A stretch of DNA of 64,000 bases from Eledone cirrhosa. Its lineage: Eukaryota. Both the position numbers and the translations under genes were made by a program. Under the pieces are notes generated by a model. The model saw only the letters and a list, made by a program, of their open reading frames with translations. It ran no database searches and was not told where the DNA came from. Below are positions 15,001-33,170 of this stretch, one piece after another (position 1 is the first letter of the stretch; every line of letters starts with the position of its first letter). The stretch spans positions 52,204,001 to 52,268,000 of the forward strand of contig OZ024741.1 of assembly GCA_964016885.1 (NCBI GenBank). Reading direction: 5' to 3'.

Positions 15001-15186
15001 TCTCTCTCTCTCTCTCTCTCTCTCTCTCTCTCTCTCTCTCTCTCTCTCTCTCACTCTCTCACACACACACACACACAGACACACATATATATTTGTAAAA
15101 AGTAAACGGAAACAACAAAGCAGATAAAACAGTACAGTACAAGGGAGAAATATGTTAATTTCACGCTTGATATAGTGAGAAAAAAG

Positions 15187-15222
15187 TTTTTACGTTTCGG
15201 ACACCAGTCCTTCATCAGAAGA
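15187..15222 (-). ncRNA. Minimal hammerhead ribozyme, same family as 25541
   Basis: TCTT-CTGATGA-A-GGAC-TGGT-GTCC-GAAA-CG-TA-AAAA (GUA site; one stem I mismatch). Confidence 0.68.
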
Positions 15223-15372
15223 TAGAACGAGAAGTAAAAAGATAAAATAGAAAGAAAGATAGAGTGTGAGAAGAGGAAGGAACAGAAACACTTATGAGAG
15301 AAAAACACGTGTGTATTCAGTGTATTTTTGAGGAAATATATATATATATTTACAAAAAAAGGAAAATATATT

Positions 15373-15581
15373 GGAAAATGTGTGAGATCCTTGGTACAGT
15401 TAGGTATATTTGAAAAAAAAAGGAAAAGAATGACTTCACTTGCAGTGCTAAATAATTTGATTTAATTTTATAATATTATAATATTATAAGATTAAATCAA
15501 ATTGTTTAGAACTACAAGTGAAGTAATTCTTTTCTTTTTTTCAAATATACCTAACTGTACCAAGGATTTCACACATTTTCC
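15373..15581. repeat. About 210-bp imperfect palindrome with no spacer
   Basis: ggaaaatgtgtgagatccttggtacagttaggtatatttg.. vs ..caaatatacctaactgtaccaaggatttcacacattttcc. Confidence 0.9.
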
Positions 15582-15591
15582 TATATATATA

Positions 15592-28295: not shown

Positions 28296-31044
28296 TATAT
28301 ATATGTAAGTATGCACACGCACATATATATATATATACACATATGTACGTATGGGCTATACTGAACATTAATAATAATGTTCGATTCCTGACTGTCTGTC
28401 GTTTGTAGGTGAGGTTAAATATATAGTCGAGAAGTTTGTTTTTTCTTGTTTATTAGTCCCTGTTGATGATGGTGATGGCGAAAATGATATTGATGAGGGT
28501 GATGGTGATGTTTAGTGTGATGTTACAAGCAATGATAATGATGGTTTTGAATGCGATGGTGATTGTAATGGTAATAGTTCTTTTTTTACAATGACGTCAT
28601 CGTCTAGTCGTATTATTGTGGTTTATTGGTGATGGTATTGCAGTGTTTATCGTTGGCAGTGAGATAATAGTAGTGAGGTGAATGGCTTCGTTGTTTAATC
28701 CATGAGCCAACCCTGATTGAGCTGTTTTGTGGTCAAAGGCGTTTCGGCCATGACCAACACGTCCATTTCTACACCTAACACTACATCGTCCAGTGTATCA
28801 ATCACTTTTAAAGACTGTAGTGTGTTTTGAAGCAGATTTCATAGCCCCACTTCGGTCAGGAATGATCATGGGTTTTGAATCTAGAAAGTTCCCTTCTAAG
28901 CACAAGCCCCGGCAAAATGTTTTTGTGAGAGACCAGCAGTCATCCATGCATGGCAGATTTCCCTCCCCATGCCATCGCTGTTGTCCACAGGAACGGCAAA
29001 AGCCAAAACAACTTGACAAGTGACATCACAACTCATCTACACTATATATATATATATATATATATACACACACACACACACAAGGTATATACACTATATA
29101 TGTTATCCAAGAGAACGGCAAAGGCTGATATATAGCTTGGCACTTGCAACGTGGCAATTTATATATACACCATATATGCACACTATAGATGATGTTATCC
29201 AAGGGAAAGGCAATGGTCGATACTACCCAGTACCAGTTATGTTGTAACTCATTTTTTTCCCAACTGAGTGATCTGTAGCAACGTGAAATAAAGTCTTATT
29301 CAAGGTCACACCACATCGCCCTAAAAGGGAATCAAACTCACAACCGTGAGATATTTAGTAGCGAGAGCGTTGAACTCACTCACGTGCCTCTCCAGATGCA
29401 AATATGACAGTTTCTAACAACTCAGTTGGAGAACCACACAGAAGCTCCCTCTATGGCTTAGTCAGCAGTCAACCCTGATTAAGCAAACCCATCGTCAAAG
29501 GTATTCCAACCGGGACCACACCACCTCATTTTTATGTGTATGTAGCTCGGGAATGTATCTGAGGTAAATGTGTGATTTGAAGAAAATCTGGGACAACTTA
29601 TTAAATACATGACCATTGTCTCTTGCTGTTGGCTTAAAAGTTGTGGTTGTTGCAGTGCTGGTGGTGGTAGTAGTTATAGTAGTAGTAATGGTAGTCGTAA
29701 TGCTAGCTGCGATCGTATTAATAATGGTGGTGGTAGTAGTGCTAATTGTGGTGGCAGTAGCAGGACTAGAAGTAGTGGGGCTAGTAGTGATAGTGATAAT
29801 GGTGGTGGAGGTAGGGTTAGTTGTAGAAGTAATGGCTGTGATCGCAGTAGTAAATGTGGTGGTAGAAGTAATGGAAACTGTAGTGGTTCTTTTTATGTAC
29901 TTGACTGACGTAGTACTAATGGTGGTGTGTATGCTTGTAGTTCAGATTAAAATATGTTAATTTTCAAAGCTTAAATAGACGAACAAATATTTAAATGAAT
30001 TAAATATTGAAATTAAATATTTAAACAAACCACATGGAAATTGTTTAACGAAATTGATAAAAATGAGAAAAAATAAATAAAAACAAGAGAGACAAAACCA
30101 AAATGAATTAACAATATTTTAGCGTCTTTATGGAAATAGTTGCTTTTGAACTCTAATTCAGTTCTGAACAGGTAGACCTATGATCAAAGGCGTTTCAGCC
30201 ACGACTATCTACACTTATTTAGGCTTAGTTAATTCATAATATATTAAATGCGCCGCTTTTTTTTTTCTTTTAGTACGTAGAGCGTGAAACGGGTAGCTAT
30301 TTGTAAGGTATGAAATGTTAATCAAGAAATATAGGTTACCTTTCAGTCCTTGACTGAAATTAATGCATGCAAGATTTCACAGCTCTAGCATCACTCGTTT
30401 TTCTTTATTGTTTGATAGATCACACATCGCATACATATATATTAGTAGCAATAATGAATACAAATACCAAAATCTAGGGAGGACTCGATAAGGGTTGTAT
30501 ATAAGTAAATATAGACCTGTAGAGCAAATATGAGCACACATTAAAAGTTTAAGCAAACAATTTCTGCTTTCATCCTAAAGATCGCGCTTTTGGGTGAAAG
30601 CAGAAATTGCCTAAATTATTAATCTGTACTTTTTATATATATATATATATATATATATATATATATATATAATGGTGGTTATCCGAAGGGGATCGGAAAG
30701 AGACCACAGTTGAATAAGATAGTCAATATCTTCGAGAAGAAGCATATTTATTTTATATGAGATGAGTTCTACAGGACTTGAATTGTTTCATTCATGCGAA
30801 ATCATTAGGAGTATCTTGATTTCATACGAATGATAGTCATGAAATCACTCTTAGTATGTACACACACACATATATATATATATACATACATACATACACA
30901 CACCATATATATATATATATATATATATATACACACACACACACACGTACATACACACGCACACATATATACACACACACATGTCTGTGTATATATGTAT
31001 GTACGTATATATACACATACGTACATACATATATGCACATATAC

Positions 31045-31148
31045 ATGCGTGTGTAATTGCGATCGTTTCTATGCTTTTAGCATTATATATATATATATAT
31101 ATATATATAATGCTAAAAGCATAGAAACGATCGCAATTACACACGCAT
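31045..31148. repeat. Perfect palindrome centred on (TA)n
   Basis: atgcgtgtgtaattgcgatcgtttctatgcttttagcat-(TA)n-atgctaaaagcatagaaacgatcgcaattacacacgcat. Confidence 0.93.
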
Positions 31149-31225
31149 ATATGGCGACGCGACGAGACCTTTTTTCTCATTTATGTCATTGCCCAGTCTT
31201 TATCTTTCTATTTCTTTAATTTCTC

Positions 31226-31263
31226 GTTTTCTGATGACGGATTGGCATCCGAAAGGTTAAAAC
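31226..31263 (+). ncRNA. Minimal hammerhead ribozyme, same family as 25541
   Basis: GTTTT-CTGATGA-C-GGAT-TGGC-ATCC-GAAA-GG-TT-AAAAC; stems I and II differ from 25541 but still pair. Confidence 0.68.
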
Positions 31264-33170
31264 CATTTTCCTACTATATCGAGCGTAAAACTAATAATAT
31301 ATTTCTTCATTGTACTGTGTCATTTGCTTTGTTATTTCTGTTTGCCTCTCTCTATATACATTAGTTCAAAAATAACGAAACATACAAAAATACCAAGCCT
31401 TAGGTTCACACTTAGCCTCACAAGCTTTATAAGCTCGGTTGGTCTTGCTTGGGAATCCTGCCTGATCAATTGGAGATGGTTGCTTCTGGTAGGACCCTCT
31501 GGAAGGTATATCAGAAGACTGCTCCCATGACCCTCCTAGAAATTAGTGGCTGAAGTAGAAATCTCTGAATGATATTTAAGTTGCCCATGATGTCGTGCTG
31601 TATGAGCTGGTATCTAAATTTCATTACGTTGGTTATTTTGAGTTATGTCGTAAGTATTTTATGTCCTATCAATCGAATAACCAGCAGTATCTATGTGTAT
31701 TATATAAGCGTATGTGAAATCTGCGTGCAACATCTGCGCGTAACATCGTGTAATATCTTTGTTATATCTCAGTCTGGTATGTGTTATCGTAAAGCTGATA
31801 CTTTATGTGAACCTTTATTTTGTCTCTTGTCGGAATTGATTCTGAACTCGTTTTGAAGATTGTAAAATCTTTTTCCTTTTTGATGATAACAATCGTCGGA
31901 AAAATGTTTCAGCTTGCTGAGATATGAGAATATGCTGGTTGTTTATGATTATAAATTGAATTTATATAATATATGCATTGTGATATAATTTTTTAAAAGT
32001 ATGATATATAAACAATAATGTTTCGAAAACCAGTTTCTGGTGAAACGAAGTTACTTTGTAATACAAATACTTCAATTTACTGTTTCTGTATTGAGTATTT
32101 TATAGTAATTGTCAGATAAATGGTGGTTCTTTTAGGCAAAAATACATTTTGAAATTAACCTCAATATAACAACGGCGCTTCACAAACCCATCAACTTCAA
32201 GTACAGAAGTAACTATACACCGAGTTAATATTGATAAATTTATTATCCTCAGTCGTAAATGACAGCTTGCACTTGCTTTGTGAACAATGATGGACGCACC
32301 GTATATCTTTTACACGGCTAGAATTCTACTTTCATCTGCAGCCGCTGCACTACTGTCTTCCATCACAGTCTTGACTATGATTTTTGAACGAACTCCATGG
32401 TACACCCTCCCATGGGTCGGTGTCTAGATAACGATTGAACATTAAAAATAACATTAAAAGCTTTCGATTCTTGCTTCATAAATGTCATTATTTCGAATCA
32501 CGCCAAAAGAAAAATGCCGATAATTCAAAGAAAAAGTTGGGAGAAAAGACAATTTATGAATTTAGAATAGGAAATTTTTAAACTAGATAATCATAATTTG
32601 AATATAAATACACATTTGACAACATTCAGTGCAAGTACAAATAAAATACCGACAATAGACAAAAACACCAAGAAACTATTCCAGTATTTTGTACAAAGAA
32701 AAATATCGAAAGTAAACTTTACTCCATTAACAAAACAGTACACAACATCTTATCAAAAAACACTTAACGATTAATGTCTGAAGTCAGTTATTTACATATT
32801 TATTTTGAGATTAACTTTAGAGAAAATCTGAACATTTAAATAAACAATTACCAGTAAATGAATAATTCTCAGGCTTAAATAACCTTTATCGCAGCAATTG
32901 GCTGTTGCTTAATACTGTCCAACACGTGATCAATCGTGTGAAAGATGTCGACAAAATGGATGCAGTTTTATCGATAAAACTGCAGCCATATTTATTATTG
33001 TTGAGTTGTTAATGTGTGTGCTTTGAACATAGAATTTTCTTTTAGCTGCTTCAATCGACAGAACTGTCTGGAACAGACAACTACGTTTTAAGTCCCGCAC
33101 TTCCACATCTTTGCAGGAGTTCACAACATTTAAACATTTGTTAATAATTTAGTTTTCTTTAATATATCCT

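What the first reader, a model, noticed from the sequence alone, without database searches (positions are those of the whole stretch)
15100..31345. Short (about 130-bp) hammerhead-headed repeat family showing compensatory base changes
Seen: four copies (15100-15222 -, 25541-25665 +, 26380-26500 -, 31226-31345 +) start with CTGATGA-N-stemII-GAAA-NN-TH, share a tail (ctatatcaagcg..ttgtactgt..ttgttatttctgttt) and end at a (TA)n tract. Stem II is GGAC/GTCC in two copies and GGAT/ATCC in another; stem I is TCTT/AAGA vs GTTTT/AAAAC; loops vary freely; the 26380 copy is broken. Known: minimal type I hammerheads with a palindromic, dimer-forming stem III occur in Penelope pseudo-LTRs and retrozymes. 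Inference: this is a non-autonomous ribozyme-bearing retroelement (solo pLTR or retrozyme-like) that targets TA microsatellites, probably unannotated in this lineage.
Basis: partly seen in the sequence, partly recalled or inferred. Interest (0 to 1): 0.75.

Follow-up and report, generated by a model that had tools for sequence, protein, structure and literature searches.

The report
Hammerhead-bearing stubs of a Penelope element
These four repeats are short end pieces of a Penelope-like jumping gene, carrying a small ribozyme motif already described in animals; the curious part is that many such pieces stop just inside a predicted promoter, so they are likely copies of the first ~230 letters of the element's own RNA, made without the ribozyme cutting.

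Summary
The four copies are real, but they are not a 130-bp element headed by a hammerhead. They are 150-380-nt ends (pLTRs) of a Neptune/Nematis-type Penelope-like element (PLE): 24 of 30 top endonuclease hits carry the same ribozyme-tail 470-675 nt downstream. One 36-mer has 2,710 exact genomic matches. The 'compensatory' stem II change is neutral decay (9/100 vs 11/100); real covariation appears only against a sister family. Only copy 2 keeps an intact minimal hammerhead. Cutting leaves no footprint: 90 of 92 copies run through the cut site. 5' ends instead pile up 121-142 nt upstream of it (24/57; replicate 17/33), just inside an Inr-plus-DPE-like promoter. The (TA)n after the tail is partly element-encoded, and copies sit in microsatellites. 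Likely mechanism: internal priming on a nicked microsatellite, then run-off to the mRNA start. The scan found such PLE stubs before, here and in other genomes. Known kind; modest interest.

The parts
25289..25665 (+). Copy 2: 377-nt 3' end of the PLE (young subfamily c2, 97% within-family identity): part of the 3' UTR, predicted promoter, intact minimal hammerhead, 93-nt tail; flanked by TA repeats on both sides
25450..25483 (+). Predicted internal Pol II promoter in copy 2: Inr-like site (A+1 at 25452; the two bases 5' of it are altered by a local deletion in this copy) and DPE-like GGACC at +28..+32 (25479-25483)
   Evidence: consensus and spacing recalled; Penelope DPE in PMC2377424
25541..25576 (+). 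Minimal type I hammerhead: stem I TCTT/AAGA, core CTGATGA, extra A at 9.1, stem II GGAC/GTCC, GAA, palindromic ACGT, predicted cut after 25572
   Evidence: features as in PMC4209133
25666..25690 (+). (TA)n at the 3' junction; in the parent element the tail continues as ACATACATATATATATAT into the 5' UTR
15094..15336 (-). Copy 1: ~240-nt stub of subfamily c1 (87% within-family identity), reaching almost to the predicted start; hammerhead core at 15218-15191 with a C.A mismatch in stem I
26372..26525 (-). Copy 3: ~150-nt decayed stub closest to subfamily c1 (79%); core broken at G5 and G12
31151..31350 (+). Copy 4: ~200-nt stub of subfamily c4 (89% within-family identity); palindrome lost (AGGT); private GGAT/ATCC stem II; predicted cut after 31258
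31041..31152 (.). Perfect fold-back of flanking DNA around a (TA)n, ending exactly at the 5' junction of copy 4; likely an insertion by-product
   Evidence: 2 of 87 other copies have a fold-back at the junction

Best explanation
[quoted passage not shown] Steps: (1) shown: the parent is a single RT+EN reading frame between head-to-tail repeats, with an ACATACATATATAT tract built in between tail and 5' UTR. (2) inferred: transcription starts at an internal Inr/DPE promoter 139 nt upstream of the hammerhead cut site. (3) inferred: the endonuclease nicks a (TA)n or (CA)n microsatellite, the nicked end pairs with the built-in tract, and RT starts there, inside the RNA. (4) inferred: priming at the first tract gives a short cDNA that runs off at the RNA 5' end (stubs ending 121-142 nt upstream of the cut site); priming at the last tract gives randomly truncated longer copies such as copy 2. 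(5) shown: the template is almost always uncut at the hammerhead. (6) shown: after insertion the copies decay, core included, while the master lineages keep the ribozyme intact; inferred: it acts only occasionally, as a dimer or with protein help, in processing tandem transcripts.
For: Link to a PLE ORF: 24 of 30 top endonuclease hits (one is the query locus) have the same hammerhead-tail 469-674 nt downstream on the same strand. Natural ORFs show RT motifs (PADKG, YxRYIDD), CX4CX2C linker, then GIY-YIG with two internal Cys; full-length homologues of 850-1130 aa carry RVT_1 and GIY-YIG and are named from corals, gastropods, tick, sharks, gar and echinoderms. pLTR arrangement: 26 of 30 loci chosen by the 5' UTR have the tail directly upstream, 17 of them at near-constant spacing. 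Microsatellite target: 39 of 87 5' junctions vs 7 of 87 controls; 75 vs 13 at the 3' side. 3' junctions of 71 scored copies stop at different points of the built-in tract: 17 CATACATAT, 15 CATAC, 15 CATAT, 16 CACA, 7 TAT, 1 other; 21 of 92 unscored. 5' pile-up at -121..-142: 24 of 57 copies at risk (window chosen after the fact), repeated in an independent set with the same window, 17 of 33; rate 0.019-0.023 per nt against 0.001-0.012 elsewhere. An Inr-like site with a DPE-like motif at exactly +28..+32 occurs once in a 2.9-kb copy (1 of 22 sense sites, 0 of 7 antisense), at -139; kept in 24 of 32 c2 and 4 of 6 c4 copies that reach it. No cut footprint: 90 of 92 copies extend 7 nt or more past the site, none starts on it; TA-joined junctions at the site number 18 against 29 at a control TA 15 nt upstream. 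Selection on masters: 1 of 29 core and stem columns differ between three subfamilies against 26 of 89 tail columns (p=0.004); a sister family with 3,406 pattern matches swaps the stem II A-U pair for G-C. Literature: internal RT start and dispensable, protein-assisted hammerhead in an anole PLE (PMC11167929, parts 1-2 of 4); internal promoter with DPE in the pLTR of Penelope (PMC2377424, passages).
Against: No RNA data: the start site, priming and cleavage are untested. In the 26 tandem junctions the upstream unit does not end preferentially at -139 (one at -142; eight at -210 or further, four of them beyond -800), so longer read-through or tandem templates must also exist. A pile-up of 5' ends could come from an RT stall or favoured joining sequence. 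The Inr and DPE motifs are short and degenerate. PMC11167929 found initiation at a site not homologous to the cut DNA, unlike step 3. Pfam support for the decayed ORFs is weak (RVT_1 E=6e-4, GIY-YIG E=0.013, both under cut-off; 0 families for 2 of 3 proteins). No ORF link was found for subfamily c1 (0 of 38). No intact full-length ORF was found among 15 long loci. The selection test rests on three related subfamilies.
Confidence: 0.72

Rival explanations
1. All stubs are ordinary random 5' truncations of cDNAs primed at the true 3' end; the pile-up reflects an RT pause or a favoured joining sequence, not a transcription start.
For: 5' truncation is the textbook fate of PLE insertions (bioRxiv 10.64898/2026.07.22.740005, passages). 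33 of 90 c2 copies extend beyond -142. Upstream units in tandems do not stop at -139.
Against: The peak is 3-10 times the background rate, repeats in a second sample, and sits 0-18 nt downstream of the only Inr+DPE-spaced motif pair in the element. Subfamily c1 has a hard boundary at the same place.
Confidence: 0.2
2. The repeats are a free-standing non-autonomous family (SINE-like solo pLTR) that propagates from stubs and borrows the PLE protein. This may hold for subfamily c1 (copies 1 and 3), not for c2 or c4.
For: 0 of 44 c1 copies share sequence upstream of the predicted start, against 39 of 141 for c2+c4 (p=9e-6; against c4 alone 5 of 34, p=0.013). c1 has its own diagnostic tail changes. 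A full stub carries promoter, ribozyme, tail and TA tract.
Against: c1 is older (87% identity), so long copies may be rarer or interrupted; only 44 copies were examined and no genome-wide search for a c1 parent was run. c2 and c4 have ORF-linked copies.
Confidence: 0.4
3. They are monomers of a non-LTR retrozyme that cleaves as a dimer, circularises and spreads by rolling-circle copying.
For: Type I hammerhead with a dimer-forming palindrome. Nine independent short compound units place two hammerheads about 330-560 nt apart. Head-to-tail units are common upstream of the 5' UTR.
Against: 2 of 90 loci hold a same-strand pair within 700 nt; unit junctions differ from locus to locus; no excess of ends at the cut site; direct link to an ORF.
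Confidence: 0.05
4. The four copies are individually functional, selected ribozymes (host-exapted), as the apparent compensatory changes would suggest.
For: Copy 4 has a T-A pair where the family has C-G, in stem II and in stem I. In 261 copies two pairs show slight excess of double changes (7 vs 3.4 expected, p=0.036; 5 vs 2.4, p=0.069; uncorrected for 8 tests).
Against: 9/100 vs 11/100 genome-wide for the stem II pair. Three of four copies have a broken core, palindrome or stem. Core positions mutate in unselected copies (A6 in 7 of 75, G8 in 4 of 75). Folding is no better than shuffles (z -0.97 to 0.03).
Confidence: 0.03

Closest known systems
Minimal hammerheads (min-HHR) in pLTRs of metazoan PLEs (Cervera and De la Pena 2014, PMC4209133; parts 1-2 of 4 read)
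   Same: Type I core, extra base at 9.1, G10.1-C11.1 pair, short helix I, palindromic 15.2-16.2, thousands of mostly single motifs related to truncated PLEs.
   Different: Helix II is only 4 bp here. The paper does not, in the parts read, relate single motifs to a start-site boundary. Its within-genome covariation is seen here only between families, not among copies.
EN+ PLEs of the Neptune/Nematis type (PMC8557442, passages; PMC3846280, passages)
   Same: Single ORF, RT then CX2-5CxxC linker then C-terminal GIY-YIG; pLTRs, tandem and inverted insertions; microsatellite bias; no clear target-site duplication (1 of 87).
   Different: A TA/CA tract is built into the pLTR-5'UTR junction. The ORF starts about 230 nt after the tail instead of inside the pLTR. 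Neptune versus Nematis was not resolved by a tree.
PAc, Poseidon element of the green anole (PMC11167929; parts 1-2 of 4 read)
   Same: RT starts inside the RNA near the pLTR-ORF junction; AT-rich targets; hammerhead cutting not needed, uncut RNA is the main template.
   Different: There the start site is not homologous to the cut DNA; here junctions suggest pairing with a microsatellite. PAc lacks the Cys linker clade features.
Drosophila virilis Penelope internal promoter (PMC2377424, passages)
   Same: Transcript starts inside the upstream pLTR; TATA-less promoter with a DPE.
   Different: Shown by experiment there, only predicted here; no intron was identified here.
Non-LTR retrozymes (bioRxiv 10.64898/2026.07.22.740005, part 1 of 5 and passages; PMC7229834, search listing only)
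   Same: Type I hammerhead, PLE pLTR ancestry, many monomers.
   Different: No tandem arrays of a fixed unit; ends vary; direct link to a coding element in two of three subfamilies.

Membership tests
EN+ Penelope-like element, Neptune/Nematis type | [quoted passage not shown] | tested here: met
   homologues with RVT_1 and GIY-YIG; Pfam hits on the decayed copies are below cut-off
EN+ Penelope-like element, Neptune/Nematis type | CX2-5CxxC linker between RT and EN, two Cys inside the GIY-YIG core | tested here: met
   CX4CX2C and CxxC in L121, L130 and five homologues; definition in PMC8557442
EN+ Penelope-like element, Neptune/Nematis type | pLTR / partial-tandem and inverted arrangements with a hammerhead in the pLTR | tested here: met
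   26 of 30 5' UTR loci have the tail upstream; 5 of 90 loci with opposite-strand partners within 700 nt
Neptune clade (against Nematis) | Placement in an RT phylogeny with named reference elements | not testable with these tools
   No named Neptune or Nematis reference proteins were returned by any tool
Minimal type I hammerhead (min-HHR) | CUGANGA core, base 9.1, G10.1-C11.1, GAAA, palindromic 15.2-16.2, UH, short helix I | tested here: met
   Met by copy 2 and by the majority state of 261 copies; not met by copies 3 and 4; copy 1 has a stem I mismatch
Minimal type I hammerhead (min-HHR) | Covariation of helices | tested here: inconclusive
   Absent among copies; one clear stem II swap and one stem I swap against the sister family, each a single event
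Minimal type I hammerhead (min-HHR) | Self-cleavage as a dimer or with protein help | not testable with these tools
   Indirect only: no excess of insertion ends at the cut site
Non-LTR retrozyme | Tandem repeats of a fixed short unit, each with a type I hammerhead | tested here: not met
   2 of 90 loci with a same-strand pair; variable junctions
Non-LTR retrozyme | Circular RNA of unit length | not testable with these tools
   No RNA holder listed
Non-autonomous solo-pLTR lineage (subfamily c1) | No coding parent; fixed 5' boundary | tested here: inconclusive
   0 of 44 sampled copies extend past the boundary; no genome-wide search for a c1 parent
Rfam hammerhead families | Covariance-model match | tested here: not met
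   0 matches at E<=10 on copy 2

The most novel reading that the evidence does not exclude
Solo hammerhead-bearing pLTRs are a built-in second product of PLE replication: a microsatellite tract inside the element's RNA pairs with a nicked genomic (TA)n or (CA)n, telomerase-like, and RT copies back to the capped start. This yields a ~230-nt unit with its own Pol II promoter, ribozyme and priming tract, and one such unit (subfamily c1, window copies 1 and 3) has become a free SINE-like passenger of the PLE. That would explain why animal genomes hold thousands of single minimal hammerheads and how retrozyme-like elements are born.
Probability: 0.35. Interest if true: 0.62.

Novelty: new member of a known kind. 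Interest (0 to 1): 0.36.

Why it matters
As an object it is ordinary: minimal hammerheads in truncated PLE ends were described in 2014 and PLEs are abundant in animal genomes. Its value is mechanistic. How PLEs form pLTRs, why single hammerheads are so numerous, and whether these ribozymes cut in vivo are open points in the papers read. This family gives a mapped candidate start site, a candidate priming tract and a negative cut footprint, each testable with a few standard assays. It also warns that covariation read from a handful of genomic repeat copies can be CpG decay.

Tried and rejected
Rfam: nothing relevant. PLE coding sequence inside the window: none by tblastn with three queries. Cut-site footprint: a first listing suggested 8 of 34 TA-joined junctions at the site (p about 0.07), but whole-genome counts were 18 against 29 at a control TA, so rejected; CA-joined or other junctions were not counted. 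Target-site duplications of unique sequence: 1 of 87. Fold-backs as a rule at 5' junctions: 8 of 87 have one within 200 nt, as many as at the 3' side, only 2 at the junction. Idea that all upstream pLTRs stop at the predicted start: not so. Inr+DPE motif pair in the sister family: 0 of 30 loci within 300 nt upstream. Minimum-energy folding does not give the hammerhead shape for monomers or dimers and is no better than shuffles; this says little for so small a motif. Expression: no RNA holder listed; three guessed-RNA runs gave only scraps upstream of the ribozyme, one run of unknown kind held 11,310 matching contigs; no inference drawn. Solved structures: no match for a homologue. Protein atlas gave no result. 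One paper on dimer-cleaving PLE hammerheads was not held. Literature searches returned no paper describing this family or a start-site-bounded solo pLTR; repeat libraries and paper supplements were not seen and may hold it. The host was not identified by any search; an earlier scan note calls it an octopus, and PMC13282606 (passages) lists recently active Penelope families in an octopus without mention of ribozymes.
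Full report
Observation. A profile built from them finds only these four in the window, plus one weak remnant at 51296-51340. The window lies in a 3.0-Gb animal genome. Each copy has many relatives: at 93-100% identity for copy 2, 81-85% for copy 1, 86-92% for copy 4. A 36-mer of the tail has 2,710 exact matches and an intact core pattern 4,836 plus 193; controls gave 0. 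These are lower bounds. Copies fall into three subfamilies, c1 (copies 1 and 3), c2 (copy 2) and c4 (copy 4), with 87%, 97% and 89% internal identity. Only copy 2 has a complete minimal hammerhead; copy 3 has two core changes, copy 4 lost the ACGT palindrome and copy 1 has a stem I mismatch.

What the repeat is. Relatives share a fixed 3' end and extend upstream by variable lengths. The longest reach a reading frame with a Cys linker and a GIY-YIG domain. Searching the genome with that protein gave 18,954 first-look candidates, 150 scored; 24 of the top 30 have the same hammerhead-tail 469-674 nt downstream on the same strand. Longer stretches show PLE RT motifs upstream of the linker; none of the 15 long loci had an intact full ORF. 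Pfam hits on these decayed frames are weak, but homologues of 850-1130 aa carry RVT_1 and GIY-YIG and come from a range of animals. This layout defines Neptune/Nematis-type PLEs (PMC8557442, passages). ORF-linked copies were found for c2 (4 of 30) and c4 (2 of 30) but not for c1 (0 of 38). The window holds no PLE coding sequence.

Covariation. The claim fails at copy level. Among the first 100 listed GGAT copies 9 have ATCC; among the first 100 GGAC copies 11 do (counted by hand; p=0.81). The G lies in a CpG. In 261 aligned copies no pair shows a double-change excess that survives eight tests. In 75 copies chosen by the tail, core positions mutate like their neighbours. At master level the picture differs: 0 of 11 core and 1 of 18 stem columns differ between subfamilies (a wobble), against 26 of 89 tail columns. 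A sister PLE family with 3,406 pattern matches has GGGC/GCCC in stem II, a true double change. So the ribozyme is kept in active lineages and decays in inserted copies.

Target and 3' end. In 87 of 92 tail-selected copies with enough flank, a microsatellite lies within 25 nt of the 5' junction in 39 (7 at a control distance) and at the 3' junction in 75 (13 control); 1 has a unique-sequence duplication. The 3' repeat is partly the element's own: 26 of 30 loci chosen by the 5' UTR have the tail right upstream, joined through ACATACATATATATATAT, 17 at near-constant spacing. Dispersed copies stop at different points in this tract and continue as (TA)n or (CA)n. I infer priming by pairing between a nicked microsatellite and this internal tract. 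Internal initiation is shown for the anole PLE, though at a non-homologous site (PMC11167929, parts 1-2).

Cleavage. If the ribozyme cut the template, copies would start at the cut site. Of 92 copies selected by sequence downstream of it, none starts there, 2 start 2-3 nt upstream and 90 extend further. TA-joined junctions number 18 at the site and 29 at a control TA. This agrees with low in vitro activity of minimal hammerheads (PMC4209133) and with cleavage being dispensable in the anole system. It differs from an earlier scan note on another genome (e1-8654857).

5' end. Ends are not spread evenly. After dropping two tandem duplicates, 24 of 57 copies at risk end at -121..-142 relative to the cut site. 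An independent set of 60 (6 duplicates and 2 unaligned loci dropped) gives 17 of 33 in the same window. At -139 lies an Inr-like ACAGTT with GGACC at +28..+32, the only such pair in a 2.9-kb copy, kept in 24 of 32 c2 and 4 of 6 c4 copies. The consensus motifs and spacing are recalled; Penelope of D. virilis has an internal promoter with a DPE in its pLTR (PMC2377424, passages). Nine independent compound insertions join the 5' UTR region to a stub starting at -45..-142, often through 2-7 nt of overlap, as expected if RT runs off a short template and jumps. Against a single rule: upstream units in tandems often extend far beyond -139, and 33 of 90 dispersed copies pass -142, among them copy 2; these need priming at the last tract or longer templates.

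Subfamily c1. None of 44 c1 copies shares element sequence upstream of the predicted start; seven apparent cases were traced to an unrelated repeat, a head-to-head pair, simple repeats or two misassigned sister-family loci. In c2 and c4, 39 of 141 do. The sample is small and no genome-wide search for a parent was possible.

Comparison and verdict. It works like a Neptune-type PLE end with a minimal hammerhead and meets the testable membership features of that group; Neptune against Nematis is untested. It is not a retrozyme array and not an Rfam hammerhead. Earlier notes of this scan describe the same kind of stub in this and other genomes; a word search found none on the promoter boundary. 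Identity as PLE ends is about 95% sure; the run-off model about 60-70%; the free c1 lineage about 40%. Novelty: new member of a known kind. Interest 0.36.

Noticed in passing
window 17128-17174 (-); same family in L122: A second, unrelated hammerhead: CTGATGA, stem II GTCC/GGAC without the extra base, GAAAC-ATT-GTT stem III and a short stem I; likely the end of another PLE family.
   Followed up: partly
window 51296-51340 (-): Weak, heavily decayed remnant resembling the stem II-tail part of the family (E=0.11).
   Followed up: partly
window 31041-31152: Perfect ~45-bp fold-back of flanking DNA around (TA)n that abuts copy 4; it produces spurious microRNA matches in Rfam.
   Followed up: partly
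L296-L325 (except L307): Sister PLE family (3,406 pattern matches) with intact core, stem II and palindrome, but a stem I of only 1-2 pairs followed by a C-rich tract; a possible distal partner (GTGAAA) lies about 25 nt downstream. EN coding sequence about 1.3 kb upstream in 4 loci.
   Followed up: partly
L150, L151, L154, L155, L158, L161, L163 (G000:C3, 89.4-90.3 Mb): The same compound insertion recurs at roughly 150-kb spacing, pointing to a large tandem segmental repeat.
   Followed up: no
L190, L239: Copies whose 3' end runs 113-128 nt past the TA tract into the 5' UTR, like the optional 'tail' of other PLEs; suggests a second start site for RT.
   Followed up: partly
flanks of many loci (one search list): At least six further CTGANGA...GAAA motif families recur in the fetched flanks, several with long stem II; this genome holds many hammerhead-bearing repeat families.
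   Followed up: no
window 2981-3169, 3877-4078, 5030-5196, 19907-20123, 54994-55181, 59573-59762: Another ~190-nt dispersed repeat with many copies at 85-98% identity; not examined.
   Followed up: no
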